From an uncultured Bacilli bacterium (GTDB lineage Bacteria > Bacillota_I > Bacilli_A > RFN20 > CAG-449): DNA of 64,000 bases. Both the position numbers and the translations under genes were made by a program. The notes below the pieces were generated by a model. That model was not told where the DNA came from. It saw only the letters and a program-made list of their open reading frames with translations, and ran no database searches. Shown one piece after another: positions 25,200-46,616 of this stretch (within the stretch, counting starts at the first letter, position 1; every line of letters begins with the position of its first letter). Location: the NCBI GenBank assembly GCA_947627505.1, contig CANQWG010000002.1, positions 17,444-81,443 of the forward strand. Reading direction: 5' to 3'.

Positions 25200-26774
25200 T
25201 TAAATTTTATTTGAAACATTCAATGTCGCATAATCATCATTGATATCGGTAATTACGAAGTCAAAAAGCAATTTTTGACCATCGTTAAAGGTAAAATCTC
25301 TATAGACTGTCTTTCCGAAATTATCGAGTTTGTAGAACAAAGAATCGTCACTTGCGCATCCGTCTCCACGATTTAAAGTATATCTGCCACTGGATTCCAT
25401 AAGCGTCAACAACTTACATCGATCGATGGATTCACTTAGCGTATTGCTATGAGCAATATTGGTATAATACGTCAAATAACGCGAATCCACCTCAATATTT
25501 TCGGTATAGCCGGAGAATAAATAACCATTCAAGGCATAATTGTAACGGAAAAGACCCAATCGTGAATCGACATGAAAGACGCGGATCCCCGGTTTTGAAT
25601 ATCCTTTTATTCCGTTACCTAAATAAGGCGCTTTACTATCTAAAGCATTGAGATTAGTCGGAGTATAATATTCGATGATAAGATATTCACCAAATGGCGA
25701 ACCATTGAATTGGCCACTAGGAATAATCAAAAAATCGCCCTCGTTCTCAAAAGGCGCAAGTTGATATTCTTGTTCCTTTTGAACAATTCGCGGTTCTACC
25801 CACCCAAGTAGAAGTTTTGAAAACGGATTGTGGTCGATAATATTTGCGTCCATCATGTCAATTGCACCACATGGAGCATCGTCTTGATCGTAAGAATAGT
25901 AATCATCTAATCCTAAAAGATGGCCAGTTTCATGAATGTAAGTATGGGCATCCGGAAGTTTGTAGCCTCCATCATACATAAATTCAATTGAAGCCCAGGA
26001 ATAAACATTAGCAGTTGGCGATTTGACGCTTCCGACGTTGCTATTACCTAAGTCCCAATAAGTATAAGCCCATAAAAGATCATCATATTCAGAATTTGAA
26101 ATTTCATAATTTTCAGAATGAACAATCCATAAAGCGTCGATAAAACCATCGTGGTTTTGATCAAATGACGAAACGAGATCTGGATATGTATTTTTAAACC
26201 ATGCCACGGCTTCCCTTATCACTAAATATGTCGGATCGATGATATCATCATTGAGATAAGCGTTTGCAAGCATCGATAAAGAATATGAAGAATCAAACCA
26301 ATCAGTCACTAGGCCTTGAATATTTAAATAGCCATAACTAGATTTATAATAAAACGATGAGACCGATTCATAACCGGTTGCCGCTGTTTCTCCAAAAAAG
26401 CTTCTTTCGATATCACTTTTAAGTCTCGCACATCCTTTGCTGTTGCTTTGGCAAGTGCGACCATTTTTAAAATTGACGGGAATCACGAGAAGATTCTGAT
26501 TGCCTAAAGAATTAAAAGCGATCGTCGGATAGCCGTTTTCGTGGAGCTTTTTTAACGTATTGTGGGTAATCACTTGAGAATCTAATGCCTTTTTCGCGCG
26601 ATTATTCGTATATGAAAAATCATCGCTTGTCGGATGATACCAACTTGGAGTTTCAAAATTTTCGACATCTTGCGATTGGTCAACTTGACTATCGCTACTT
26701 TGAGGGAACCTAAAGTCACACGAACTTAAAAGCAAAGTTCCCAATAAAAACAAAATTCCTAAAAGTTTCTTCAT
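25200..26774 (-). CDS. secreted zinc metalloprotease lipoprotein (HExxHxxGxxD; InhA/M6-like or snapalysin-like), paralog 1
   Basis: Lipobox LLLSSC. Motif YIHETGHLLGLDDYYSYD. The core is shared with the next two ORFs (LLVIPVNF, SVSSFYYKSSYG, LLWAYTYWDL, PCGxIDMMD). Confidence 0.75.
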   Translation of the reverse strand: MKKLLGILFLLGTLLLSSCDFRFPQSSDSQVDQSQDVENFETPSWYHPTSDDFSYTNNRAKKALDSQVITHNTLKKLHENGYPTIAFNSLGNQNLLVIPVNFKNGRTCQSNSKGCARLKSDIERSFFGETAATGYESVSSFYYKSSYGYLNIQGLVTDWFDSSYSLSMLANAYLNDDIIDPTYLVIREAVAWFKNTYPDLVSSFDQNHDGFIDALWIVHSENYEISNSEYDDLLWAYTYWDLGNSNVGSVKSPTANVYSWASIEFMYDGGYKLPDAHTYIHETGHLLGLDDYYSYDQDDAPCGAIDMMDANIIDHNPFSKLLLGWVEPRIVQKEQEYQLAPFENEGDFLIIPSGQFNGSPFGEYLIIEYYTPTNLNALDSKAPYLGNGIKGYSKPGIRVFHVDSRLGLFRYNYALNGYLFSGYTENIEVDSRYLTYYTNIAHSNTLSESIDRCKLLTLMESSGRYTLNRGDGCASDDSLFYKLDNFGKTVYRDFTFNDGQKLLFDFVITDINDDYATLNVSNKI

Positions 26775-28768
26775 AATATTTTCCTAGAAATCGATAACGC
26801 TACGCCCTTGTCATCCATATCTCCGATTTGAATCGTGAATTTCAACGATGATCCATCGTTGAATGAAAAGTTATTATAGATACTACTGCCGAACACTTGC
26901 CCGGTTTTTAATAACGTTTCATTAGTCGCATATCCACTTTCAAAAAGCGTATTGGTTCCCTCAGCATTTAAAAGCGTGATTTTTCGTACATTGTAATCGC
27001 GAGAAGAAGTGGTATTTGAAGCATAATATCCGATATTTCCGGAAACTTGAGTGGTAAAACCACCGCCGCCAGTTAATCCCGCATAGCGATAAAGGCGATT
27101 GTCGACATGGTATATTTTAATGCCGTTTTCAGTGAAGCACTTAAGATAACGTTCGTCATAACCATATGCATCGCTTTCATTTAAGCCGGTCGGAGTATAG
27201 TATTCCACCAACAAAAATTCATTAAATACAGAACCATTCCACGTAGATGCGGGAATCAGTAAAAACTGACCACTAGAACTAAAAGGTCTTAAAACTAATT
27301 TTTGTTCCGTGGCGATGACTGTCGGATTAGCCCACTCTAATAGCATTTTAGAAAATGAGTTATGATCTCCGACATTAAAATCCATCATGTCGATACCACC
27401 ACATGGCATCGAATAATCGATTCCGACACCCGTCGCGTTACTTCCATAGTTATAATTGTAATAATCGTCTAATCCCAACAGATGACCGGTTTCATGAATG
27501 TAAGTATGAGCATCAACTTTACTACGATTTTGGCGCTTTAAAAAATCATAAGAAGCCCAACAATAGCTTCTAGCCATCGGCGAAACTGCAGATGCCCGAC
27601 TATCGAGATCCCAATATGTATAGGCCCACAACAAATCCGAATACTTTCTTAAACTCAAATTAGAGCGCGAAGAATTATAATACGGAGCGGCATAGACTAA
27701 CCACACGCCGTCGATGAAGCCGTCGTGATCATTATCGAAATCTAAAATATCATCGTATTGAGATTTATACCAACGAATCGCTTCACGTAAAACAAAGTAA
27801 GTTGGATCGTTATATAATCCGCGCAATGATTCAATGTCAGAGACATCGTAATTAAGATTGAACCAATCGCTCACTTTTCCTTTTATACTAAGTTGACCAT
27901 AACTTGATTTGTAGTAATAAGAAGACACCGATTCCCAATCAGTGTACTCACTCTTAGCAAAGAACGCTTTTTCGATATCTTGGCGTGCTTTAGAACAACC
28001 CCCATCGATATCATTACAAGTATAATCGTTAAAATTAACCGGAATAACCAATAGATTCGGTTCTCCCCGACTTGGAAATTGATAAGTGCCGCGGTAATTT
28101 TGGTAATCCGAAAGTTTAGTATCATATACCGAAGTCATATTTATCGATGGTGATGGTTGATTATTTTGCAATTCATATTTATCAAACAATGTTCCGTTAA
28201 TTTGAAAATCTCCTTCACGAATAATCACTCTTTTGAGGCCAAAAGACAAGTTGTCGTCTTTTTGCAATAACATGATTTTTATCTGATTGATGGTATTATC
28301 ACCGCATGGTAGTTTTACACTGACCGATGAAGAAGATACGTCCTTTTCATCAAAGTAAGCAGTAGAAATCAAAGTATTATCGTGATATGCCGAAACTTCA
28401 AAAAGTAAGTTTGTTATCGGAAGATGAGTTGTTTCATTGTACGCAAACTCAATTTCCACAATCGCATCGTTAGCGATATTCAATTGTGGCGACAAAATAT
28501 AATCATTGCTATTCTCAAAAAGTATCAAAGAAGTAGGAGATAATTGAAAAACTCTTTTTGAATATGTCCATCCTTGTGGCGCGGTAAATTGGTGCACAAA
28601 AGATTGATCGTTATAAACGACAGTTGATGTTTCCTCACTAAAAGAACTTGAAATGAGATTTTCTTCCAAAGAGGAACTATTTAAACTATAATCAAAAAAA
28701 GTATCTTTTGAGCATGAGCTTAACAACATTATGGTAGCAAATGCCAAAGATTTGAACTTCATTTTCAT
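26771..28768 (-). CDS. secreted zinc metalloprotease lipoprotein, paralog 2, with an extra ~200-aa N-terminal domain
   Basis: Lipobox MLLSSC. Motif YIHETGHLLGLDDYYNYN. 4-nt overlap with paralog 1. Its N-terminal domain is related to that of paralog 3. Confidence 0.75.
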   Translation of the reverse strand: MKMKFKSLAFATIMLLSSCSKDTFFDYSLNSSSLEENLISSSFSEETSTVVYNDQSFVHQFTAPQGWTYSKRVFQLSPTSLILFENSNDYILSPQLNIANDAIVEIEFAYNETTHLPITNLLFEVSAYHDNTLISTAYFDEKDVSSSSVSVKLPCGDNTINQIKIMLLQKDDNLSFGLKRVIIREGDFQINGTLFDKYELQNNQPSPSINMTSVYDTKLSDYQNYRGTYQFPSRGEPNLLVIPVNFNDYTCNDIDGGCSKARQDIEKAFFAKSEYTDWESVSSYYYKSSYGQLSIKGKVSDWFNLNYDVSDIESLRGLYNDPTYFVLREAIRWYKSQYDDILDFDNDHDGFIDGVWLVYAAPYYNSSRSNLSLRKYSDLLWAYTYWDLDSRASAVSPMARSYCWASYDFLKRQNRSKVDAHTYIHETGHLLGLDDYYNYNYGSNATGVGIDYSMPCGGIDMMDFNVGDHNSFSKMLLEWANPTVIATEQKLVLRPFSSSGQFLLIPASTWNGSVFNEFLLVEYYTPTGLNESDAYGYDERYLKCFTENGIKIYHVDNRLYRYAGLTGGGGFTTQVSGNIGYYASNTTSSRDYNVRKITLLNAEGTNTLFESGYATNETLLKTGQVFGSSIYNNFSFNDGSSLKFTIQIGDMDDKGVALSISRKIL

Positions 28769-28957
28769 ACCATCATCTCCTTTTGATTGTTTAATATTTT
28801 AACATCTATTATTTCAATATCAATAAAATTTCAAAATGTAAAACAAATCGACAAAATAATGAAAACATATTTTTCACTTTTTGTTGCGCTTTATTAGTTT
28901 CTTAAATATAAATTATTAATATTTTATTTTTGCGTTACATTAATTTAATTTCATTAT

Positions 28958-28995
28958 AAAAACCAATGTACCTTTAACTCAGCACATTGGTTTTT
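28958..28995 (-). terminator. rho-independent terminator after metalloprotease paralog 3
   Basis: Hairpin AAAAACCAATGT-(14 nt)-ACATTGGTTTTT, immediately downstream of the stop at 28998. Confidence 0.65.
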
Positions 28996-28997
28996 GA

Positions 28998-31097
28998 TTA
29001 CTTTTTAGTAAATGTGATCGTCGTCGATTCGTCACTCATGGCCGTGATTGTAAAAGTCCACTTTAAATCTTTGCCATCATTGAATTTGAAATCCTCAAAT
29101 TTAGTAACTCCGAAATCATCGTTCAACTTGAATAAACTGCTGTTTGTAGCGGGTTGATCGCGGAAGAAACTATTTGATTCATCAGCCTCCAGTAAATGCA
29201 ATTTACGGAATCCGTCATAGTTTTCTCTCGTTGTCGAGTTTTCGTGAGCAAAACCTAAGCCTTGTCCGTCTGCAAGTCCAAAGACGACTTGATCAGTATA
29301 TCTTCCGAGTTCATAGCTGTTTGATTGAGAATTAGCTCTTAAAATCGCCAATCGTGAATCGACATGATAAATTTTAATGCCAATAGTATCCATCGCCTTA
29401 AAATTGTATTTGGCATATGGAACTTCAGAATCAAGTTGATTGAGACCGGTCGGTGTATAAAATTCAATCATCAGATATTCTGCAAACGGGTTATCTTTAA
29501 AGCTTTCATTTGGAACTAAAATGCAATCGCCACTTGATTCAAATGGTCTAATAGTCAATGATGTGGTATTATCTTTGACCACTTGAGGTTCAACCCAATT
29601 CAAGAGGAATTTCGAATAAGCATTATGATCCACGATATTGTTGTCCATCATATCGACTTTTCCAGCCGGACTATACATATCGTTGCGTCCGTCACGATCG
29701 TAGTTGTAATAATCCGGAAGTCCTAAAATATGTCCGGTTTCATGAATGAAAGTGTGCGCATCGGGTTTATCATATCCGCCTTCATACATGAAGTCATATG
29801 AAGCCCAACCATAACAATAAGCATTTGGCGAAGAGAAATTAGGTTGCACCGTGTAGTCACGATGGACAAATGCCCAATATAGATCGCTTGGTAAATGGGT
29901 ATTATCGCTATTATCGGAACATACTCCTGTTTTTGAATAGTTACAGTTATTTTGTGCATAAACCATCCACACAGAATCAATGTAACCATCACCATCAGAA
30001 TCGTAATCGTCGATATCATCGTATGTTTGTTTATACCATTCAATCGATTCGCGAAGAGCAAACCACGAGTTATTTCCATAATTCATATGGAGCAATTCGC
30101 TGGTGGTGCAAGGTAAAGTGAAAGGTTTAGTGACACGACCGGTAATATTCAAATAGCCGTAACTTGACTTATAATAAAATGACGATACCGATTCCCAACC
30201 AACTTCATCTTCAGTTCCGAAGAAACTCGCTTCGATATCGTGACGAGCTTGATCTTCGTCTTCAAATTTAACGTCTTGGAATTGAATCGGAATAACTAGC
30301 AATTTTCTTTCGCCGGTCGATTTTAAACTTAAAGATTTGCTGGCATTTGAATAGTCTTCTAAAGTCGAGCCGGTAGCTACAGTTCTTTCCGGAACCGCTT
30401 TTTCAACATTATTAACCATCGATACATTAGAAACATAGTCATCATCATCTACGATGAGGGATTCACTTCCCGCGCCAGAATAAATCTTAACTTTTCCGAT
30501 TCCGATGTTTAAACCGAAAGTTGAAGCTTTTTTAGCGTAGATAATTTTAACAAATTTTATAGTCTTTCCTTCGTTTGGAAGATCAAAGACAACATTGCCA
30601 CGATCGGTAGAATTAGGGAATTGTTCACTGTGAGTCAACGATTGTTCACTGATAACATTTTTATCGGCATCCAAAGCTTGAACCGTAAATAAAAGTTCTC
30701 CTTGTTTCATCACACGTTCAGTGCCATTTAACGCGAGGAAGATGGCGACATGAATGTTGCAATCAGCGGAAAATTCTTTACTTATAAGATAATCGCCACT
30801 GCGATTCATCTTTAACATTTTAGTTCCGACACTGACATTATCGTTATCGTAAAACGTAAACTTTTTGGAATATTCCCAACCATCAGGAGCATCTACTTGG
30901 TCATAAAATTTTTGCTCGACATATGTTTTATCGGGACCTTCACTTAAGGTTGGTGAAGAACTCGTCACTGAATCCGTTAAGGATGTAGAATCTTGACTAG
31001 AATTATTGTTTTCTTCTCCATTATTACAACTTACCATCGCTGAAGTCGTAAATGAGAGTAAAGCCAATAAAACTAATAATTTGTGTTTTTTCATCAT
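28998..31097 (-). CDS. secreted zinc metalloprotease lipoprotein, paralog 3, with an N-terminal accessory domain
   Basis: Signal peptide and lipobox AMVSC. Motif FIHETGHILGLPDYYNYD. Same conserved core blocks as paralogs 1 and 2. Confidence 0.75.
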   Translation of the reverse strand: MMKKHKLLVLLALLSFTTSAMVSCNNGEENNNSSQDSTSLTDSVTSSSPTLSEGPDKTYVEQKFYDQVDAPDGWEYSKKFTFYDNDNVSVGTKMLKMNRSGDYLISKEFSADCNIHVAIFLALNGTERVMKQGELLFTVQALDADKNVISEQSLTHSEQFPNSTDRGNVVFDLPNEGKTIKFVKIIYAKKASTFGLNIGIGKVKIYSGAGSESLIVDDDDYVSNVSMVNNVEKAVPERTVATGSTLEDYSNASKSLSLKSTGERKLLVIPIQFQDVKFEDEDQARHDIEASFFGTEDEVGWESVSSFYYKSSYGYLNITGRVTKPFTLPCTTSELLHMNYGNNSWFALRESIEWYKQTYDDIDDYDSDGDGYIDSVWMVYAQNNCNYSKTGVCSDNSDNTHLPSDLYWAFVHRDYTVQPNFSSPNAYCYGWASYDFMYEGGYDKPDAHTFIHETGHILGLPDYYNYDRDGRNDMYSPAGKVDMMDNNIVDHNAYSKFLLNWVEPQVVKDNTTSLTIRPFESSGDCILVPNESFKDNPFAEYLMIEFYTPTGLNQLDSEVPYAKYNFKAMDTIGIKIYHVDSRLAILRANSQSNSYELGRYTDQVVFGLADGQGLGFAHENSTTRENYDGFRKLHLLEADESNSFFRDQPATNSSLFKLNDDFGVTKFEDFKFNDGKDLKWTFTITAMSDESTTITFTKK

Positions 31098-31217
31098 TTA
31101 ACACCTCTCTTTTTTAGTTATTATATGGATTAAGTTTTATAAATGCAAATAAATTACTTAATTTTATGATTTTACTATTCATAATACTCAAATTCAAAAA
31201 CAACATTTCAATATCAA

Positions 31218-33008
31218 TTAATTTAATGTCGGCACTCCATTTTCATAATGCCATTCATTACCCCAATAAACTGGTCTATCGCTATAATTCCAATTACTAG
31301 ACCATCCATTTGGCTTTGATGATGCTTCACAATAGATAATTAATGAATTGCACCAATAGAATGCGTTATTTCCTATACTTGTGACACTACTTGGAATAGT
31401 GATACTTGTTAAGAATCTGCAATAAAAGAATGCACCACCTCCGATGCTTGTGACACTATTTGGAATGGTGATATTTGTTAAGGAACTACATCCACTAAAC
31501 GCATAGTCTCCGATACTTTCTAATTTACTATTTGGTTCAAAAGTTACACTCTGTAATTGGTCACAATAATGGAATGCATGTTCTCCGATACTTGTGACAC
31601 TACTTGGAATAGTGATACTTGTTAAGAATCCGCAATAAAAGAATGCACTACCTCCGATGCTTGTGACATCATAGGTTTTTCCTTTAAATTCTATTGTAGT
31701 TGGTATTTCTACATTTGTTGATGTTCCAACATATCTTGTTACTACTGCTTCTTCATCGATTATTACATATTGGATACCATCTTTTTCAGTAAAATTATTT
31801 TCATTAATTCCCCAGTAAACTGGTCTATTGCTATAATTCCAATCACTATCCCATCCACTTGGTTTTGATGATGCTTCACAATAGATGGTTAATGAATGAC
31901 AATAACGGAATGCATCTTCTCCGATACTTGTGACACTACTTGGAATAGTGATACTTGTTAAGAATCTGCAATAAAAGAATGCACTACCTCCGATGCTTGT
32001 GACATCATAGGTTTTTCCATTAAATTCTATTGTAGTTGGTATTTCTACATTTGTTGATGTTCCTACATATCTTGTTATTACTGCTTCTTCATTGATAATT
32101 ACATATTGGATACCATCTTTTTCAATAAAATTAATTTCATTAATTCCCCAGTAAACTGGTATATAGCGAGAATTCCAGTTATCATAATTCCAATAATCAT
32201 CCCATCCACTTGGCCTTACTGATACTTCACAATAGATGGTTAATGAACTACATCCATAGAATGCATAGTTTCCTATATTTGTAACACTACTTGGAATGGT
32301 GATACTTGTTAAAGAATAACACCGATAGAACGCAGCCACACCGATATTTTTTAATTTATTATTTGGTTCAAAAGTTACACTTTGTAATTGAATACAATTT
32401 TCGAATGCATCTTCTCCTATACTTGTGACATTACTTGGAATGGTGATACTTGTTAAGGAACTACAATTCTTGAATGCATATCCCCCTATACTTTCCAATT
32501 TACTATTTGGTTCAAAAGTTACACTTTGTAATTGAGTACAATATCTGAATGCACTTTCTCCTATACTTGTGACACTACTTGGAATCGTGATACTTTCTAA
32601 GGAACTACAACCATCGAATGCACTATATTCTATACTTTTGACACTATCTGGAATAGTGATACTCGTTAATGAATTACAACTAGAGAATGCAGAATCCCCG
32701 ATACGCACTAATACATATATCACATTATCAATAGTTAATTGTCTTGGTAAATCTATTTCTTCTGCTTTTTTATCTTTGACGCCGGTAACAGTATATGTAT
32801 GATTTTCTTCATCTAAAGTATATGTAATATTCAATGCTTCCAAATATGGATCGTTTGATGAACTATCATCCGTCGATGATGATTCCTCTGATGACGTTGT
32901 CGCTGATGATGAAGATGATGAATCATTTGTCCCACCGCCACAGCCACATAAGGTAGTCATCGCCATCAGTAATGCTGATAGAATCCTTATACCATTTGAT
33001 ATTTTCAT
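31218..33008 (-). CDS. BspA-type leucine-rich-repeat (LRR_5-like) surface lipoprotein, paralog 1
   Basis: Lipobox TTLCGC with a Ser/Asp-rich linker. About 20 repeats of the form SLTSITIPSSVTSIGExAFxxC. The C-terminus EWHYENGVPTLN is shared by all three paralogs. It has two internal ~110-aa direct repeats. Confidence 0.8.
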   Translation of the reverse strand: MKISNGIRILSALLMAMTTLCGCGGGTNDSSSSSSATTSSEESSSTDDSSSNDPYLEALNITYTLDEENHTYTVTGVKDKKAEEIDLPRQLTIDNVIYVLVRIGDSAFSSCNSLTSITIPDSVKSIEYSAFDGCSSLESITIPSSVTSIGESAFRYCTQLQSVTFEPNSKLESIGGYAFKNCSSLTSITIPSNVTSIGEDAFENCIQLQSVTFEPNNKLKNIGVAAFYRCYSLTSITIPSSVTNIGNYAFYGCSSLTIYCEVSVRPSGWDDYWNYDNWNSRYIPVYWGINEINFIEKDGIQYVIINEEAVITRYVGTSTNVEIPTTIEFNGKTYDVTSIGGSAFFYCRFLTSITIPSSVTSIGEDAFRYCHSLTIYCEASSKPSGWDSDWNYSNRPVYWGINENNFTEKDGIQYVIIDEEAVVTRYVGTSTNVEIPTTIEFKGKTYDVTSIGGSAFFYCGFLTSITIPSSVTSIGEHAFHYCDQLQSVTFEPNSKLESIGDYAFSGCSSLTNITIPNSVTSIGGGAFFYCRFLTSITIPSSVTSIGNNAFYWCNSLIIYCEASSKPNGWSSNWNYSDRPVYWGNEWHYENGVPTLN

Positions 33009-33366
33009 TTTTTACTCCCCTCCCTGTTTTATAATTCAAAAACAGTAATTTTTTCTTTTTTTAATTATATCATTATTTGCATATCTACAAATAGATTAAC
33101 TATATATTTCCATACTTTTGCTAAGTGACAAAGTTAACGCAACATAAAGGATTTATTGACAAAAAAACGATTTGAAAAATCAATTCGCATCTTATAATAA
33201 ATAACGGATATGCTGTTAGAAAATATATTTCATAGAAAAAATACACTTCTTAATAATCTATGCCATTAAAGAGATTTATGTTGTTATAAAAAATTAAACA
33301 TTATTTAAATCTTTGGAAAGTGAAATCACAGATTACTTTCCCAGTTGTTATATCGAAGTCATTGAT

Positions 33367-33549
33367 ATGAAATGCTTAGATTGTGATTACGAGGAGGAAG
33401 TTGAAGCAGACATACTTTTAGAATGCTTTGAAATGACTAATGATGACTTCCCTTCTTGTATTTGTGTTAATTGTAATGGTGATAATCTTGTCCCTAAAGA
33501 TGTTTATGATCAAATTAAAGGCAATTTTATCTATAAACTTAAAAAATAA
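33367..33549 (+). CDS. possible small Cys-rich zinc-ribbon protein (60 aa from an internal ATG; the track ORF starts at a TTG at 33313)
   Basis: Two Cys pairs (CLDCD and CICVNCNG). No convincing RBS. Sits alone on the + strand between LRR paralogs. Confidence 0.3.
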   Translation: MKCLDCDYEEEVEADILLECFEMTNDDFPSCICVNCNGDNLVPKDVYDQIKGNFIYKLKK

Positions 33550-33616
33550 TTATTTTCTTTTCTTCTTTTTCCCTTATTTTTTTTATTTCGTTATTAAATA
33601 CAATTTCCTATATAAT

Positions 33617-33662
33617 GAAAAAAGATATGGCCTTAAATATAACGCTAAAACCATATCTTTAG
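33617..33662 (-). terminator. hairpin terminator downstream of LRR paralog 2
   Basis: 10-bp stem AAAGATATGG/CCATATCTTT with flanking A and T runs. Confidence 0.5.
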
Positions 33663-33728
33663 ATAAATTTCAAAAATTGTTTTCTTTCTAATTTATACTC
33701 AAATTCAAAATCAACATTAACATATCAA

Positions 33729-35108
33729 TTAATTTAATGTCGGCACTCCGTTTTCATAATGCCATTCATTCCCCCAGTAAACTGGTCTATTACTAAAATT
33801 CCAATAATCATCCCATCCACTTGGTTTTTCTGATACTTCACAATAGATGGTTAAGGAATTGCAACTTTCAAATACCCGCCCGCCAACAGTTGTAACACTA
33901 TTTGGAATGGTGATACTTGCGGTACTACATCCGTAGAAAGCATAGTTTCCTATACTTGTGACACTATCTGGAATGGTGATAATTAAGGCACTACATCTGT
34001 AGAAAGCATTATCTCCTATACTTGTTACATCATATGTATTTCCATTGATTTCTATTGTTGTCGGTATTACTACATTTGTTGATGTTCCGATATATCTTGT
34101 TACTACTGCTTCTTCATCGACAATCACATATTGGATACCATCTTTTTCAATAAAATTATTTTCATTAATGCCCCAATAAACTGGATTATTATACCAAGCA
34201 GCACTATCCCATTTACTTGGTTTTTCTGATACTTCACAATAGATGGTTAGGGAATAACAACTGAAGAATGCATTATATCCTATACTTGTGACACTATTTG
34301 GAATGATGATACTTATTAAAGAAGTACACCGATAGAATGCACCTCCACTTATACTTTCCAACTTACTATTTGGTTCAAAAGTTACATGTTGTAATTGAGT
34401 ACAATTATTGAATGCACTACCTCCGATACTTGTGACACTATTTGGAATGACGATACTTGTTAAAGAACTACATTCATAGAATGCATCTGCAGGTATACTA
34501 GTTCCACCTAATATAATTATGGTTTTTAATGATTCTGGAACATAGGTAGAATTATCTTCATATGTGGTTGCTCCAAAATAATACCCTAAATATGTATCTA
34601 TAAATGGTAAAGTTAAACTTTCTAAGGAATTACAACCTTCGAATGCACTTTCTCCGATACTTGTGACACTATCTGGAATAGTGATATTTGTTAAGGAACT
34701 ACAACTAGAAAATGCAGAATCCCCGATACGCACTAATACATATATCACATTATCAATAGTCAATTCTCTTGGTAAATCGATATCTTCTGCTTGTTTATCT
34801 TTGACGCCGGTAACAATATATGTATGATTTTCTTCATCTAAGGTATATGTAATATTCAATTCCTCTAAATAGGGATCATTCGATGAACTGTTATCCGTCG
34901 ATGAGGATTCCTCTGATGACGTCGTAGCTGACGATAAAGATGATAAATAATTCGATGAAGATGACGTAACATTCGATGAAGACTCCTCTGATGACATCGT
35001 CGCTGACGATGAAGGTGATGAATCATTTGTCCCACCGGCACAGCCACATAAGGTAGTCATCGCCATCAGTAATGCCGATAGAATCCTTATACCATTTGCT
35101 TTTTTCAT
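33729..35108 (-). CDS. BspA-type LRR surface lipoprotein, paralog 2
   Basis: The first ~25 codons and the last ~12 codons are identical to paralogs 1 and 3. LRR_5-like repeats fill the body. Confidence 0.8.
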   Translation of the reverse strand: MKKANGIRILSALLMAMTTLCGCAGGTNDSSPSSSATMSSEESSSNVTSSSSNYLSSLSSATTSSEESSSTDNSSSNDPYLEELNITYTLDEENHTYIVTGVKDKQAEDIDLPRELTIDNVIYVLVRIGDSAFSSCSSLTNITIPDSVTSIGESAFEGCNSLESLTLPFIDTYLGYYFGATTYEDNSTYVPESLKTIIILGGTSIPADAFYECSSLTSIVIPNSVTSIGGSAFNNCTQLQHVTFEPNSKLESISGGAFYRCTSLISIIIPNSVTSIGYNAFFSCYSLTIYCEVSEKPSKWDSAAWYNNPVYWGINENNFIEKDGIQYVIVDEEAVVTRYIGTSTNVVIPTTIEINGNTYDVTSIGDNAFYRCSALIITIPDSVTSIGNYAFYGCSTASITIPNSVTTVGGRVFESCNSLTIYCEVSEKPSGWDDYWNFSNRPVYWGNEWHYENGVPTLN

Positions 35109-35389
35109 GCTTTCCTCCTTAAATATTTACTTACTTAATATGAAAATAAGCTTAATGTTAATTTTATTCTTTAAACCGTTAAAAAAGCGTTTAAAATTTA
35201 TTTGCTTTTTTAACATTAATTAAATTTTTATTTTGACTTCAAATTAAAAAAAATACATTTGAACTTCTTGTTGATTATTTCAAGGTTCTTATGTATTCTT
35301 CGTGGCTTCTTCCATTGCTTTATGATTATTTTATGCTCAACCATTGACCAAACGTATCTAAAAATTTTTTCATATTTCCAATTCTAAAT

Positions 35390-35545
35390 AATTAATCCAA
35401 CCCTTAATAATTTGATTTACTTGCAGTTCCACTTCTTTCACCCATAGCATTACTGCTAACGGCTTGTGGTTCGCTACACTTGGCGATAAATACCCGTGGT
35501 TGCCTTCATTTCCAACTAGATTAATATCATGCCCGACACACTAAA
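35390..35545 (-). pseudogene. C-terminal remnant of an unidentified gene (translation ...GHDINLVGNEGNHGYLSPSVANHKPLAVMLWVKEVELQVNQIIKGWINYLELEI*) with no start codon
   Basis: A protein-like reading frame of ~55 codons bounded upstream by an in-frame TAG directly adjacent to a duplicated terminator copy. It lies between two LRR cassettes. Confidence 0.35.
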
Positions 35546-35548
35546 AAA

Positions 35549-35575
35549 GGTCAACCTATATAAACTTTGTTGACC
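35549..35575 (-). terminator. terminator downstream of LRR paralog 3 (a copy of the obg terminator)
   Basis: Hairpin GGTCAAC-(13 nt)-GTTGACC preceded by A6. Nearly identical to 37603-37641. Confidence 0.6.
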
Positions 35576-35620
35576 TCTTTCATGGTTAATTCTAAAGTTG
35601 CGTTAACATTGTAAAGTCCG

Positions 35621-37471
35621 TTAATTTAACGTCGGCACTCCATTTTCATCGTAATGCCATTCTTCTCCCCAGTAAACTGGTCTATCATTAGAATTCCAAT
35701 GATCATTCCAATCACTTGGTTTTGATGATGCTTCACAATAGATGGTTAAGGAGTCACATACGGAGAAAGCAGAACTTCCTATACTTGTGACACTATCTGG
35801 AATCACAATACTTTCTAAAGAAGTACATCTAACGAATGCATATAGCGCTATACTTGTGACACTATTTGAAATCACAATACTTGTTAAGGAACTACATTTT
35901 TCAAATGCTTCCTCTCCGATACTTGTGACATCATACGCAATTTCATTAATTTCTATAGTAGTCGGTATTTCTACATTTGTTGATGTTCCGACATATCTTG
36001 TTACTACTGCTTTTTCATTGACAATCACATATTGGATACCATCTTTTTCAATAAAATTATTTTCATTAATCCCCCAGTAAACTATTCCGCCATAGTAATT
36101 CCAATTACTAGCCCATCCGCTTGGTTTTTCTGATGCTTCACAATAGATGGCTGAAGAACTACAATCATAAAATGCTCGCTCTCTAATAACTGTAACACTA
36201 TTTGGAATGGTAATACTTAAGGCACTGCATCCGTAGAATGCATAGTCTCCGATATATGTAACACTACTTGGAATGGTGATACTTATTAAAGAACTACTTC
36301 TATCGAAGGCCCATTTTTCGATATTTATGACATCATATGTATTTTCATTAATTTCTATTGTTGTCGGTATTTCTAGATTTGTTGATGTTCCGACATATCT
36401 TGTTACTGATGCTTCTTCATTTCTTATTACATATTGTACACCGTCTTTTTCAATAAAAGTATTTTCATTAATTCCCCAGTAAACCGGTCGACCATGGGAA
36501 TTCCAATCATTCGACTGCTGCTTCCAACCTTCTGGCTCTTCTAATGCTTCACAATAGATGGTTAAGGAAACACAAGCATAAAATGCCCATTCTCCCATAC
36601 TTGTGACACTACTTGGAATGATGATGCTTTCTAAAGCACTACAATTATAGAATGCATATCTCTCTATACTTATGATATCACTTGGAATTGTAACACTCTT
36701 TAAAAAGCTGCAGTCAGAGAATGCATTTACAGGGATACTTGTTCCACCTAATATAATTATGGTTTTTAATGATTCTGGAACATAGTGAGCATTGGAACTA
36801 TACATTGATGCTCCAAAATAATAACTTATATATGTATCTATAAATGGTAAAGTTAAACTTTCTAAGGAATTACAACCTTCGAATGCACTTTCTCCGATAA
36901 TTGTGACACTACTTGGAATGCTGATCATTATTAAGGAACTACAATCCTTGAATGCATATCCCCCTATACTTTCCAATTTACTATTTGGTTCAAAAGTCAC
37001 ACTTTGTAATTGAGTACAATTTTCAAAGGCCAATTCCCCGATACTTGTGACACTACTTGGAATAGTGATACTTGTTAAGGAACTACAATTAGAGAATGCA
37101 GAATCCCCGATACGCACTAATACATATATCACATTATCAATAGTCAATTCTCTTGACAAATCGATATCTTCTGCTTGTTTATCTTTGACGCCGGTAACAG
37201 TATATGTATGATTTTCTTCATCTAAAGTATATGTAATATTCAATGCCTCCAAATATGGATCGCTCGATGAACTATCATCCGCCGATGATGATTCCTCTGA
37301 TGACGTTGTCGCTGACGATGAAGCTGACGTATCATTCGATGAGGATTTCTCTAATGACATCGTCGCTGACGATGAAGATGATGAATCATTTGTCGCACCA
37401 CTACAGCCACATAAGGTAGTCATCGCCACTAGTAATGCCGAAAGAATCTTTATACCATTTGCTTTTTTCAT
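35621..37471 (-). CDS. BspA-type LRR surface lipoprotein, paralog 3
   Basis: Lipobox TTLCGC. LRR_5-like repeats. Conserved C-terminus WHYDENGVPTLN. Confidence 0.8.
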   Translation of the reverse strand: MKKANGIKILSALLVAMTTLCGCSGATNDSSSSSSATMSLEKSSSNDTSASSSATTSSEESSSADDSSSSDPYLEALNITYTLDEENHTYTVTGVKDKQAEDIDLSRELTIDNVIYVLVRIGDSAFSNCSSLTSITIPSSVTSIGELAFENCTQLQSVTFEPNSKLESIGGYAFKDCSSLIMISIPSSVTIIGESAFEGCNSLESLTLPFIDTYISYYFGASMYSSNAHYVPESLKTIIILGGTSIPVNAFSDCSFLKSVTIPSDIISIERYAFYNCSALESIIIPSSVTSMGEWAFYACVSLTIYCEALEEPEGWKQQSNDWNSHGRPVYWGINENTFIEKDGVQYVIRNEEASVTRYVGTSTNLEIPTTIEINENTYDVINIEKWAFDRSSSLISITIPSSVTYIGDYAFYGCSALSITIPNSVTVIRERAFYDCSSSAIYCEASEKPSGWASNWNYYGGIVYWGINENNFIEKDGIQYVIVNEKAVVTRYVGTSTNVEIPTTIEINEIAYDVTSIGEEAFEKCSSLTSIVISNSVTSIALYAFVRCTSLESIVIPDSVTSIGSSAFSVCDSLTIYCEASSKPSDWNDHWNSNDRPVYWGEEWHYDENGVPTLN

Positions 37472-37602
37472 GTTTTCCTCCTTAAATATTTACTTACTTA
37501 ATATGAAAATAAGCTTAATGTTAATTTTATTATTCAAACCGTTAAAAAAGCGTTTAAAATTTATTCGCTTTTTTAACATTAATGAAATTTTTATTTTGAC
37601 TA

Positions 37603-37641
37603 AAAAAGGTCAACCTATATAAAATCTTTTGACCTTTTTTT
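37603..37641 (-). terminator. bidirectional rho-independent terminator after obg
   Basis: 12-bp stem AAAAAAGGTCAA/TTGACCTTTTTT. Confidence 0.7.
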
Positions 37642-37696
37642 AGCTAATTCTAAAGTTGCGTTAACATTGTCACTTGACTTATTTTTAATAATCTTA

Positions 37697-38974
37697 CTAT
37701 TCATAATACTCAAATTCAAAATCACAAAGAATCACAGTATCGCCGTCTTTAGCGCCCATCGCTTTTAATTCTTCATCGACTCCGATATTTCTTAAGATTG
37801 AAATCAGTTTCATGATTCCTTCATCAGTCGAAAGATTGATAAGCGAATACGTGCGTTCGATTCTTTCACCGCTGATTACAAAAGTGTCACTTTTGGTTTT
37901 GGTAATCTTGTACTCTTTTTTCATCTCTTCTTTGGCAGAGTAAACTTTCACTTCTTGATCTTTCGTCTCATAAAGCGGGAAAAGCGGCGTGACATCAAGT
38001 AATTGCTTTGCAGCATATAACATCTCTTCGATGCCTTGATGACGAACGGCAGACAACTTATATACTTGATATTGACCTTCAAGTTTTTCTTTGACCAAAT
38101 TATACTTTTCTTCACTTTGCGGATCTTCGACTTTGTTACAGGCGACAATCATCGGTCTTTTGATAAGATTAAATCCATAACTTTCAAGTTCCTGATTGAT
38201 CATTTTAAAATCCAACAAAGGATCTTCATGCTCCATATCTAGAACATGGATAATCACCCGACATCTTTCAATATGGCGTAAAAAATTCAAACCCAGTCCT
38301 TTTCCTTTATGCGCTCCTTCGATAAGTCCTGGAAGATCGGCGATTACAAACGATGAACCATCGGGTAAGTGCGTGACGCCGAGATTTGGAGTAATCGTCG
38401 TAAAAGGATAAGCGGCAATTTCAGGTTTAGCATTGCTGACGACGCTTAAAATCGTCGATTTACCGACACTTGGTAACCCTACTAACCCGACATCGGCTAA
38501 AAGTTTTAATTCCAATGTCAATGTCTTTTCTTCACCCGGCAAACCATTTTCCGCGACACGCGGTGCTCGATTTTTAGGGGACGCAAAACAAGCATTGCCG
38601 CGCCCACCGCGACCACCTTTAGCGACTAAAAACGTCTGCCCTTCAGTTGATAGATCACAAAGAAATAAATGTGATGGTTCCTCAAAAACGATGGTACCGC
38701 ATGGAACATCAAGATAGATATTATTTGCCGCGCGACCATACATTTTTTTGGCTAAACCTTTGCCACCTTCTTCGGCCTTGATGGTTTTAGCGTGACGATA
38801 ATTAATCAACGTCGATTCATCCGATGTAGCCCGTAAATAAATGCTACCGCCGCGCCCACCATTACCACCGCTTGGACCGCCGCGTTCAATGAATTTTTCG
38901 TGATGAAAGGCGATACATCCGTCTCCCCCTTTTCCGGCTTTGACAGTGAGTTTTGCTTTATCGATAAACATCAA
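37697..38974 (-). CDS. obg: GTPase Obg/CgtA
   Basis: Obg fold N-terminus (KAGKGGDG), G domain GLVGLPSVGKST, and a C-terminal TGS-like domain. Confidence 0.93.
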   Translation of the reverse strand: MMFIDKAKLTVKAGKGGDGCIAFHHEKFIERGGPSGGNGGRGGSIYLRATSDESTLINYRHAKTIKAEEGGKGLAKKMYGRAANNIYLDVPCGTIVFEEPSHLFLCDLSTEGQTFLVAKGGRGGRGNACFASPKNRAPRVAENGLPGEEKTLTLELKLLADVGLVGLPSVGKSTILSVVSNAKPEIAAYPFTTITPNLGVTHLPDGSSFVIADLPGLIEGAHKGKGLGLNFLRHIERCRVIIHVLDMEHEDPLLDFKMINQELESYGFNLIKRPMIVACNKVEDPQSEEKYNLVKEKLEGQYQVYKLSAVRHQGIEEMLYAAKQLLDVTPLFPLYETKDQEVKVYSAKEEMKKEYKITKTKSDTFVISGERIERTYSLINLSTDEGIMKLISILRNIGVDEELKAMGAKDGDTVILCDFEFEYYE

Positions 38975-46379: not shown

Positions 46380-46616
46380 AAAAAACGTCCGTTTAAGGAC
46401 GCTTATGCGTGGTACCACCTTAATTCAACCATTTTGGTTGCACTCTTTACAGGCGATAACGGTGCCTTCCGGGGAGATTAATCCCATACTCCCGAGCGAC
46501 CATCTTCAAGTTTCTTCAGCTTTTTTCACCGACCAAAGCCTCTCTTAGAATACCTCTTGAAGAACCTCTCGTTCTTCGTACTTTCATATTATTTTATAAA
46601 AAAGCGACGATGTCAA
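46380..46616 (-). promoter_or_regulatory. T-box riboswitch leader of valS (promoter, stem I, T-box antiterminator sequence and terminator)
   Basis: The minus-strand sequence AATTAAGGTGGTACCACG matches the conserved T-box. It is followed by the terminator GCGTCC-TTAAAC-GGACGT+T6 just upstream of the valS start. A TTGACA -35 lies at 46611-46616. Confidence 0.8.

What the first reader, a model, noticed from the sequence alone, without database searches (positions are those of the whole stretch)
31218..37471. Three tandem paralogous BspA-type LRR lipoproteins with identical termini and duplicated flanks (cassette-like, recombination-prone family)
The ORFs 31218-33008, 33729-35108 and 35621-37471 share a near-identical lipoprotein signal (MKK/ISNGIRILSALLMAMTTLCGC), a Ser/Thr/Asp-rich linker, and an identical C-terminus (GNEWHYENGVPTLN). 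Their internal LRR_5-type repeats (SLTSITIPSSVTSIGExAF) differ in number and order. The 5' UTR/promoter block (~120 nt, from TTTCCTCCTTAAATATTTACTTACTTAATATGAAAATAAGC to TTTTAACATTAAT) is almost identical upstream of paralogs 2 and 3 (35109-35230 versus 37472-37590). The 3' flanks are also shared. Conserved ends around a variable repeat core, with duplicated regulatory flanks, is the architecture expected for surface proteins that diversify by gene conversion or unequal crossing-over. Examples are BspA in Tannerella and Treponema, and internalin-like adhesins.
Basis: seen in the sequence. Interest (0 to 1): 0.65.

Follow-up and report, generated by a model that had tools for sequence, protein, structure and literature searches.

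The report
Recombining tandem LRR surface lipoprotein genes
Three neighbouring genes in an uncultured gut bacterium encode lipid-anchored leucine-rich-repeat surface proteins that swap pieces of their front ends with each other; this is real and well documented here, but it is an ordinary example of a well-known kind of gene family.

Summary
Three minus-strand ORFs (p1 31218-33008, p2 33729-35108, p3 35621-37471) encode LRR_5/TpLRR ("BspA-type") proteins. Each has a PROSITE-type lipobox (Cys23), a disordered Ser/Thr/Asp-rich stalk, and two or three LRR "supermodules". Small corrections apply. Only p1 and p2 have identical C-termini and share a 3' flank. Only p2 and p3 share the promoter block (125/130 nt).

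The array is a lineage-specific insertion between obg and an M6 metallopeptidase gene. It is bracketed by copies of the obg 3' end and grew by tandem duplication.

The recombination reading is supported:
- Informative sites among the three paralogs are mosaic (p=2e-4).
- Between strains, the 5' blocks diverge 5-7%, against 0.25-1.8% in the LRR cores and 1.3% in housekeeping genes (odds ratio 5.5, p=9e-31).
- The p3 signal-peptide segment of one lineage is identical to the p2 type.
- Whole-unit indels occur (69-nt LRR unit, 21-nt linker repeat).

There is no invertase, silent cassette, long simple-sequence tract or DGR signature, so this is not a programmed switch. Gene number was constant in all haplotypes seen. 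All comparison sequences are short-read metagenome assemblies, so some chimerism cannot be excluded.

Verdict: new member of a known kind, with modest interest.

The parts
35621..37471 (-). p3: LRR_5 lipoprotein, 616 aa, with lipobox Cys23, a 47-aa S/T-rich stalk and 3 LRR supermodules
   Evidence: identical to database protein P0122
33729..35108 (-). p2: LRR_5 lipoprotein, 459 aa, with a 54-aa stalk and 2 supermodules. In the AF2 model residues 80-459 have pLDDT >90 (except a short dip at about 179-188) and residues 20-75 are disordered.
31218..33008 (-). p1: LRR_5 lipoprotein, 596 aa, with a 29-aa stalk and 3 supermodules. It contains an internal 336-nt supermodule duplication (31563-32317, 88% matches).
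37472..37601 (-). Shared upstream (promoter/5'UTR) block of p3, with AAGGAGG as the Shine-Dalgarno sequence. It contains a 37-nt palindrome at 37541-37577.
   Evidence: 125/130 identical to the p2 copy; the exact promoter position is not resolved
35109..35238 (-). Shared upstream block of p2 (copy of 37472-37601). The palindrome lies at 35178-35214.
33009..33100 (-). p1's own, different upstream region. It has an extended -10 (TG at 33072-33071, TATAAT at 33069-33064) and GGGAGGGGAG as the Shine-Dalgarno sequence. About 80 nt of it is homologous to the region upstream of the dispersed minimal paralog P0126.
   Evidence: read from the sequence; homology
37599..37675 (-). obg 3' flank: the 21-nt motif (37655-37675) plus a terminator hairpin (GGTCAA..TTGACC followed by a T-run)
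35540..35617 (-). Copy of the obg 3' flank and terminator, now lying 3' of p3. It marks a duplication junction.
   Evidence: 65/73
37680..37727 (-). True 3' end of obg (..CDFEFEYYE, stop); upstream member of the direct repeat that brackets the array
   Evidence: (D10)
31158..31205 (-). Pseudo-copy of the obg 3' end (41/48), about 75 nt before the M6a start codon. This is the ancestral obg-to-M6 junction.
   Evidence: relatives L009 and L015 have obg directly followed by the M6 gene
33695..33712 (-). Partial third copy of the obg tail (GATTTTGAATTTGAGTAT), 3' of p2
33621..33660 (-). Terminator-like hairpin after p2
32578..32646 (-). 69-nt (one LRR unit) indel polymorphism in p1. It is present in the window and in protein P0003, and absent in L087, L088 and L169.
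34936..34956 (-). 21-nt linker-repeat indel in p2 (459 vs 452 aa alleles), inside a 21-nt tandem repeat
34656..35108 (-). p2 5' block, a between-strain divergence hot spot: 6.0% vs lineage B and 6.6% vs the near-clonal L001
37040..37471 (-). p3 5' block hot spot (5.1% vs lineage B). In lineage B the signal segment is identical to the p2 type.
32440..33008 (-). p1 5' block hot spot (7.2% vs lineage B, plus the 69-nt indel)

Best explanation
This is a lineage-specific array of three tandem paralogs in an uncultured, walled, low-GC Bacilli gut bacterium. The paralogs encode surface lipoproteins of the LRR_5/TpLRR ('BspA-like') class.

How each protein is built and works:
- It is exported, and Cys23 is lipidated (inferred from the lipobox).
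- A disordered 29-54 aa Ser/Thr/Asp-rich stalk would carry the folded part away from the membrane and through the wall (inferred).
- Two or three LRR solenoid supermodules, each made of a beta N-cap, 1-6 LRRs of about 23 aa and a 'LTIYCE..PSGW..WN..PVYWG' cap, act as a ligand-binding or adhesive surface (inferred from the family; the ligand is unknown).

How the locus arose (shown from sequence):
- An LRR gene was inserted between obg and an M6 metallopeptidase lipoprotein gene, with duplication of about 45 nt of the obg 3' end.
- The array then grew by tandem duplications. Their junctions still carry pieces of the obg tail, its terminator and the promoter block.

How it evolves now (supported statistically; read-level proof is lacking):
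- The 5' homology blocks (signal peptide, stalk, N-cap and first LRRs) share exact tracts up to 70 nt.
- They undergo RecA-type inter-paralog gene conversion.
- Occasional unequal crossing-over or slippage at the 69-nt LRR and 21/54-nt stalk repeats also occurs.
- The effect is to homogenise paralogs locally while inflating differences between strains.

It is ordinary homology-driven concerted evolution, not a programmed switch.
For: Class and fold: Pfam LRR_5 E down to 3e-92. phmmer vs PDB gives 4fs7 at 2e-43 and TpLRR 6mlx at 1e-31. The AF2 model has pLDDT 82, with >90 for residues 80-459 apart from a short dip at about 179-188, and residues 20-75 disordered. Foldseek top hits are 4gt6, 4fs7, PcpA and TpLRR.

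Lipobox: PS00013 is matched in all three LRR proteins and in the three M6 neighbours.

Walled host: PBP, Mur ligases and MraY lie nearby.

Insertion: relatives L009 and L015 have obg followed directly by the M6 gene. The obg tail repeat is 41/48. The U/terminator repeat is 65/73 and the P block 125/130.

Mosaicism within the window: informative sites cluster, with 39 adjacent-identical pairs against 24.1 +/- 3.9 expected (p=1.8e-4; coding sites only, p=0.004).

Between strains: the 5' blocks diverge 5.1, 6.0 and 7.2%, against cores at 1.8, 1.4 and 0.25% and housekeeping genes at 1.3% (OR 5.5, p=9e-31). L001 has 0 differences in 11,275 nt upstream, but 30 substitutions plus a 21-nt indel in the p2 5' block and 7 substitutions in the p3 5' block.

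Non-orthologous identity: lineage-B p3 signal segment is 0/75 from the p2 type and 7/75 from window p3.

Shared polymorphism: 31 of 81 ortholog differences, against about 12% expected (p=2e-9).

Replication: the lineage-B alleles recur in three independent assemblies, namely L169, L170+L088 and L087.

The expected dual effect of interlocus conversion (homogenising paralogs while raising allelic variation) is described in PMC3966223.
Against: All comparison haplotypes, and probably the window itself, are short-read metagenome assemblies. Contigs L002-L006 break exactly in the repeated promoter block. In L001 and L171 the p2 and p3 5' regions are identical to each other, which could be repeat collapse; the L002 end and the L171 start overlap by 55 nt, which I infer to be the assembler's k-mer size, though the assembly parameters were not available.

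The window's own p2 5' tract has no donor among the sequences seen, so exchange between strains rather than within a genome is possible.

No expression, lipidation or binding data exist. The ligand is unknown. Gene copy number did not vary among the four haplotype sets.
Confidence: 0.75

Rival explanations
1. Programmed phase or antigenic variation system. The three genes would be cassettes of a dedicated high-frequency switching system, as in Mycoplasma vsp/vsa/vlp, Treponema tprK or Neisseria pilE/pilS.
For: The genes are tandem lipoprotein genes with conserved 5' ends and repeat-rich bodies. Near-clonal strains differ only in the 5' blocks. The shared promoter block contains a 37-nt palindrome and nested inverted repeats. 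A conserved 21-nt motif occurs three times, once inverted.
Against: No site-specific recombinase lies within at least 10 kb on either side; only the housekeeping RuvAB and RecJ are present. All three genes have their own Shine-Dalgarno sequence, ATG and intact ORF in every haplotype, so there are no silent cassettes. Homopolymers are at most 8 nt and none lies in the promoter block or in coding sequence. No simple-sequence repeats were found. The LRR cores, which are the likely antigenic part, are stable between strains.
Confidence: 0.06
2. Static old duplicates plus assembly artefact. The paralogs simply diverged, their ends are conserved by purifying selection, and the apparent strain differences are chimeras or collapsed repeats in metagenome assemblies.
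For: Contigs break at the repeat. The p2=p3 5' identity in L001 and L171 fits repeat collapse. Coverage of the contigs is low, at 5-10x.
Against: The non-coding promoter block is 96% identical, while neighbouring coding blocks are 72-88%. Contig L169 resolves distinct p3, p2 and p1 5' sequences in one contig, and its alleles recur in two further samples. L001 carries bases found in neither window p2 nor p3 but present in protein P0003 from another MAG, for example the 'SSMDD' motif. Mosaicism is significant inside the window alone.
Confidence: 0.1
3. Allelic replacement between strains. The hot spots would come from homologous recombination with DNA imported from divergent strains or species, not from exchange among the three paralogs of one genome.
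For: The window's p2 5' tract (34773-35110) differs from all other haplotypes and has no donor among the known paralogs. The L087 p1 first-LRR region carries variants seen in no window paralog.
Against: The lineage-B p3 signal segment is identical to the p2 type of the same genome. 38% of ortholog differences are polymorphisms shared with other paralogs. The hot spots coincide exactly with the blocks of paralog homology rather than with the whole genes. The two processes are not exclusive.
Confidence: 0.2

Closest known systems
LRR_5 / TpLRR ('BspA-type') proteins: Pfam PF13306; solved examples TpLRR (6mlx), B. ovatus BACOVA_04585 (4fs7), F. prausnitzii cell-surface protein (4gt6)
   Same: They share the ~23-residue repeat (69-nt period), the sequence profile and the predicted solenoid fold.
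   Different: Here two or three solenoid supermodules are strung together behind a lipobox and a long disordered Ser/Thr-rich stalk. Tannerella BspA itself has a different anchoring and export architecture (own knowledge), and none of its extra domains is detected here.
Expanded BspA-like families of host-associated microbes: 'Ca. Mycoplasma (Malacoplasma) girerdii' (26 members) and Trichomonas vaginalis (>900)
   Same: They are lineage-specific multigene expansions of TpLRR surface proteins of variable length, thought to mediate host interaction (PMC4206474, PMC2843621). A girerdii protein is among the hits (P0095). BspA-like genes also caused assembly gaps there (PMC4206474).
   Different: The family here is tiny: three tandem genes plus one dispersed minimal member in the sister species. 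The girerdii proteins mostly have a C-terminal transmembrane anchor (PMC4206474), not a lipobox.
Pneumococcal PcpA and streptococcal HupY/LrrG LRR adhesins
   Same: They have the same LRR class: Foldseek finds 4cp6 at E 1e-9 and NCBIfam finds adhesin_HupY at E 3e-29, below the cut-off. They are Gram-positive surface adhesins.
   Different: They are anchored by choline-binding repeats or LPXTG rather than by lipid (own knowledge). They are single genes, not a tandem mosaic family.
Mycoplasma variable lipoprotein loci (vsp, vsa, vlp and similar)
   Same: They are tandem lipoprotein genes with conserved signal-peptide 5' ends and repetitive bodies, and they show strain-to-strain mosaicism.
   Different: Those loci use a site-specific recombinase, a single moving promoter or a poly(A) promoter tract (own knowledge). 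None of these is present here. The host here has a cell wall.
LRR surface-antigen families shaped by recombination, e.g. Leishmania PSA, and interlocus gene conversion in general
   Same: These are LRR families evolving by recombination (PMC2584048). Conversion homogenises paralogs while raising allelic variation (PMC3966223), which is the pattern seen.
   Different: The organisms and LRR subtype differ. Here the exchanged part is mainly the signal/stalk/N-cap block rather than the repeat core.

Membership tests
LRR_5 / TpLRR (BspA-type LRR) domain family | Match to Pfam PF13306 above the gathering score | tested here: met
   306, 178 and 260 bits against a cut-off of 27.7
LRR_5 / TpLRR (BspA-type LRR) domain family | Repeat unit of about 23 residues | tested here: met
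   TRF period of 69 nt in all three genes; AFxxC boundaries spaced 22-25 aa apart
LRR_5 / TpLRR (BspA-type LRR) domain family | LRR solenoid fold resembling solved TpLRR-class structures | tested here: met
   AF2 pLDDT >90 over residues 80-459 apart from a short dip at about 179-188. Foldseek finds 4gt6 at 4e-14, 4fs7 at 5e-11 and 6mlx at 3e-8. TM-scores are low (0.3) because the query has two domains.
BspA of Tannerella forsythia (the protein proper) | BspA-specific non-LRR C-terminal region and export signal | tested here: not met
   No domain other than LRR families was detected. The proteins end in a short GNEWHYENGVPTLN tail. They are 'BspA-like' in repeat type only.
Bacterial lipoproteins (Lgt/Lsp pathway) | PROSITE PS00013 lipobox, with Cys at positions 15-35 and K/R in the first 7 residues | tested here: met
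   LL(M/V)AMTTLCGC with Cys23 in all three proteins
Bacterial lipoproteins (Lgt/Lsp pathway) | Actual lipidation; lgt and lsp present in the genome | not testable with these tools
   Only a 64-kb window is available, and there are no biochemical data.
Interlocus (inter-paralog) gene conversion | Mosaic phylogenetic signal along aligned paralogs | tested here: met
   Permutation test on clustering of informative sites gives p=1.8e-4 (coding sites only, p=0.004)
Interlocus (inter-paralog) gene conversion | Allelic divergence elevated specifically in blocks of paralog homology; non-orthologous copies closer than orthologs; shared polymorphism | tested here: met
   OR 5.5, p=9e-31. B_p3 is 0/75 from the p2 type and 7/75 from W_p3. 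Shared polymorphism is 31/81 against 12% expected, p=2e-9.
Interlocus (inter-paralog) gene conversion | Variants verified in reads or long molecules (not assembly chimeras) | not testable with these tools
   No read data are accessible. Only replication across independent assemblies is available.
Programmed variation by site-specific inversion (vsp/vsa type) | Adjacent tyrosine or serine recombinase and inverted recombination sites at the gene 5' ends | tested here: not met
   No recombinase lies within at least 10 kb. All genes are in the same orientation.
Programmed variation by simple-sequence tracts (vlp type) | Long homopolymer or SSR in the promoter spacer or coding region | tested here: not met
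   The longest tract is 8 nt, outside the promoter block and coding sequence; no SSR was found.
Silent-cassette systems (tprK / pilE-pilS / vlsE type) | One expression site plus promoterless partial cassettes | tested here: not met
   All three genes are full-length with Shine-Dalgarno sequence and ATG in every haplotype.
Diversity-generating retroelement | RT gene, TR/VR pair and adenine-specific substitutions | tested here: not met
   Only a decayed maturase fragment is present. The substitutions are of all types.
Integrated genomic island at a gene 3' end | Flanking direct repeats that duplicate the target gene's 3' end; absence from relatives | tested here: met
   The repeat is 41/48. In L009 and L015 obg abuts the M6 gene.
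Integrated genomic island at a gene 3' end | Integrase or other mobility genes; similarity to known mobile elements | tested here: not met
   No integrase was found. The only mobile-element trace is a group II intron maturase remnant. There is no plasmid or phage similarity.

The most novel reading that the evidence does not exclude
The 5' blocks may be an unusually fast, localised conversion hot spot acting on ecological time scales. Strains with zero differences over 11.3 kb of flanking DNA differ by 6.6% plus an indel in 453 nt of p2. The array itself may be the decayed remnant of an element that integrated into the 3' end of obg. If both hold, this would be a compact natural system for watching concerted evolution and stalk/signal swapping of surface proteins in a gut commensal in real time. 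The conserved 21-nt motif and the 37-nt palindrome might then act as recombination or regulatory sites.
Probability: 0.15. Interest if true: 0.5.

Novelty: new member of a known kind. Interest (0 to 1): 0.3.

Why it matters
The locus is a clean, small example of how a gut commensal builds and reshuffles a surface-protein family: insertion next to a housekeeping gene, tandem duplication, then gene conversion concentrated in the homologous 5' blocks.

Practically, it explains why metagenome assemblies of this species break just after obg. It also warns that MAG sequences of such loci may be chimeric.

It does not change what is known about BspA-like proteins or about bacterial antigenic variation.

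Tried and rejected
- Metagenome scan with the N-terminal 180 aa of p3: only distant LRR matches to residues ~90-180 came back, and no further alleles.
- Protein search with the p2 N-terminus: it returned only P0126 and missed even the known alleles, so it says nothing about allele diversity. It did reveal the dispersed minimal paralog.
- Exact look-ups of p1, p2 and P0003: not on record (the gene caller used other starts), so DNA for P0003 could not be obtained.
- Rfam on the array at a permissive threshold: no hits, so there is no known riboswitch or intron RNA.
- DGR idea, prompted by the reverse-transcriptase-related remnant: rejected, because the substitutions are not adenine-specific and there is no RT or TR.
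- Phase variation by homopolymer or SSR: rejected.
- Invertible promoter: the inverted repeats in the promoter block span only ~130 nt and no recombinase is present. The RNA fold z-scores of -2.4 to -2.6 are unremarkable.
- Plasmid or phage origin: no similarity beyond ~120-nt LRR fragments.
- The consensus promoter scan gave fewer sites than shuffles, so it does not locate the p2/p3 promoter.

Full report
**What is there.** Three minus-strand ORFs lie between obg (37697-38971) and three tandem M6-family metallopeptidase genes (25200-31097). They are p1 (31218-33008, 596 aa), p2 (33729-35108, 459 aa) and p3 (35621-37471, 616 aa). All three hit Pfam LRR_5 (PF13306, 'BspA type') with E from 1e-52 to 3e-92. 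They also hit the PDB chains 4fs7, 4gt6 and TpLRR 6mlx by sequence. An AlphaFold model of p2 has mean pLDDT 82. Residues 80-459 are above 90, apart from a short low-confidence stretch at about 179-188, and residues 20-75 are disordered. Its best Foldseek matches are gut-bacterial LRR cell-surface proteins, pneumococcal PcpA and TpLRR.

Each protein starts with a signal peptide that matches the PROSITE PS00013 lipobox (LL[MV]AMTTLCGC, Cys23). So do the three neighbouring peptidases. A 29-54 aa stalk follows that is 80-86% S/T/D/E/N. After it come two or three 'supermodules', each made of a beta-rich N-cap, 1-6 LRRs and a LTIYCE..PSGW..WN..PVYWG cap. The window holds no other paralog.

**Host and neighbourhood.** The surrounding genes are housekeeping: L21/Prp/L27/obg, a class I aminoacyl-tRNA synthetase gene with a T-box leader, minD, ruvAB, recJ, PBP, mur ligases and mraY. 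The host is therefore a walled Firmicute. Record titles identify it as an uncultured Bacilli MAG from 'Lapin' samples, probably rabbit gut. The window matches an NCBI contig of 101,978 nt.

The shared promoter block of p2 and p3 is real, at 125/130 nt. The N-terminal coding regions are near-identical, differing at 4-9 of 75 nt. Three details need correcting. Only p1 and p2 have the identical C-terminus and a common 3' flank; p3 ends GEEWHYDENGVPTLN. The upstream region of p1 is different and carries its own extended -10, TGATATAAT, at 33072-33064. Block identities between paralogs are 72-93%, with exact tracts up to 50-70 nt.

**Origin of the array.** In two relatives with 64-68% identical Obg (L009, L015), obg is followed after ~80 nt by the M6 peptidase gene, with no LRR gene between them. 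In the window, a 48-nt pseudo-copy of the obg 3' end (31158-31205, 41/48) sits ~75 nt before the M6a start. That is the ancestral junction. The real obg tail lies 6.5 kb away. A partial third copy follows p2 (33695-33712). The 3' flank of p3 is a copy of obg's own 3' flank with its terminator (65/73), followed by the promoter block. The array is therefore a lineage-specific insertion that grew by tandem duplication. Three other sequence features lie between the genes:
- a frame-shifted group II intron maturase remnant (35240-35530; GIIM E 2e-5);
- a conserved 78-aa Cys-rich ORF on the other strand (33313-33549);
- a 21-nt motif present three times, once inverted.

No integrase and no plasmid or phage similarity was found. 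The sister species carries a 179-aa minimal family member at another locus, beside a JetABC system. Its upstream ~80 nt is homologous to the region upstream of p1.

**Evidence for recombination.**
- *Within the window.* The 71 informative sites of the collinear 5' alignment fall in runs. p2=p3 holds upstream, p1=p2 in the signal peptide and p1=p3 in the stalk and N-cap, and the pattern then switches again. Permutation gives p=1.8e-4, or 0.004 for coding sites only.
- *Exact-Obg look-ups.* These gave contigs from other samples. Most end inside the repeated promoter block.
- *Near-clonal haplotype L001.* It is identical to the window over 11,275 nt upstream. It differs by 30 substitutions plus a 21-nt repeat-unit indel in the p2 5' block and by 7 substitutions in the p3 5' block. 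Almost nothing else differs.
- *Second lineage.* L169, L170, L087 and L088 come from three samples and carry mutually consistent alleles. This lineage differs from the window by 1.3% in housekeeping DNA, by 0.25-1.8% in the LRR cores, and by 5.1, 6.0 and 7.2% in the three 5' blocks (OR 5.5, p=9e-31). It also has a 69-nt deletion in p1, exactly one LRR unit.
- *Cassette shuffling.* N-terminal cassette types sit at different gene positions in different strains. The lineage-B p3 signal segment is 0/75 from the p2 type but 7/75 from window p3.
- *Shared polymorphism.* 31 of 81 ortholog differences are polymorphisms shared with other paralogs, against ~12% expected (p=2e-9).

Interlocus gene conversion is expected to give this pattern, homogenising paralogs while inflating allelic variation (PMC3966223).

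**Caveats.** Every comparison sequence is a low-coverage short-read metagenome assembly. In L001 and L171 the p2 and p3 5' regions are identical to each other, and the contig ends overlap by 55 nt. I read that length as the assembler's k-mer size, an inference because the assembly parameters were not available, so repeat collapse may explain this particular allele. It cannot explain the bases found in neither window copy but present in an independent MAG protein, P0003. It also cannot explain the fully resolved contig L169. The window's own p2 5' tract has no donor among the sequences seen, so import from other strains may contribute.

**What it is not.**
- No site-specific recombinase lies within at least 10 kb.
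- No silent cassettes exist: all copies are intact and have a Shine-Dalgarno sequence and ATG in all haplotypes.
- No homopolymer exceeds 8 nt and no SSR is present.
- There is no DGR signature.
- There are no Rfam elements.
- Gene number and order (p3, p2, small ORF, p1) were the same in all haplotypes.
- The LRR cores, the likely binding and antigenic surfaces, are stable between strains.

The exchange therefore looks like a by-product of homology rather than a diversification device.

**Comparison with known systems and verdict.** The proteins are members of the LRR_5/TpLRR class, but they are not BspA proper. Multigene BspA-like expansions in host-associated microbes are well known, for example 26 genes in 'Ca. 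M. girerdii' and more than 900 in Trichomonas (PMC4206474, PMC2843621). Recombining LRR surface families are also known (PMC2584048). The locus resembles Mycoplasma variable-lipoprotein loci in layout but lacks their switching machinery.

This is a real, well-supported, ordinary example: a new member of a known kind. I score interest at 0.3. The most novel reading that remains open is a fast conversion hot spot in a decayed obg-integrated islet. I give it about 15% probability.

Noticed in passing
window 35240-35530 (- strand): Frame-shifted remnant of a group II intron maturase between p3 and p2. A stitched 62-aa translation hits Pfam GIIM at E 2e-5, above the cut-off. Rfam detects no intron RNA. 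The remnant splits the duplicated terminator from the promoter block.
   Followed up: partly
window 33313-33549 (+ strand): A 78-aa acidic, Cys-rich ORF (CxxC...CxCxxC). It is the only plus-strand gene in this stretch. It is conserved and was called as a gene in four other assemblies. It has no Pfam or NCBIfam match, and its function is unknown.
   Followed up: partly
window 25200-31097 (- strand): Three tandem paralogous M6-family metallopeptidase lipoproteins (35-41% aa identity; TIGR03296 E 5e-27, below the cut-off; each with a lipobox). Together with the LRR genes they form a 12-kb run of six lipoprotein genes.
   Followed up: partly
window 37655-37675 (+), 35597-35617 (+), 33123-33143 (inverted): The 21-nt motif GTTGCGTTAACATTGTCACTT occurs three times, against 0 expected by chance. 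It is conserved in all haplotypes and in the sister species, but not in more distant relatives. Its role is unknown; it could be an operator or a duplication relic.
   Followed up: partly
window 37541-37577 and 35178-35214: A 37-nt near-perfect palindrome (GTTAAAAAAGCG...CGCTTTTTTAAC) lies inside the promoter block shared by p2 and p3, nested in a 31-nt outer inverted repeat. Whether it is an operator, a hairpin or a terminator-like element is not resolved.
   Followed up: partly
window 37680-37727, 31158-31205 and 33695-33712: The obg 3' end is duplicated and brackets the whole array. Relatives L009 and L015 have obg directly followed by the M6 peptidase gene, so the array is an insertion.
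   Followed up: yes
L172 10001-10540 (GCA_947588815.1, contig CANQAG010000010.1): The sister species carries a 179-aa minimal family member (P0126) with the same signal peptide and the same WG.EWHYENGVPT tail but a single supermodule. It lies next to a Wadjet JetABC defence system.
   Followed up: partly
window 46392-46585 (- strand): A T-box leader (Rfam RF00230, 102 bits) lies upstream of the class I aminoacyl-tRNA synthetase gene at 43770-46358.
   Followed up: no
L002-L006, ending at window 37477-37502: Independent metagenome and Logan contigs of this species all stop inside the repeated promoter block just after obg. The repeat systematically breaks short-read assemblies.
   Followed up: yes
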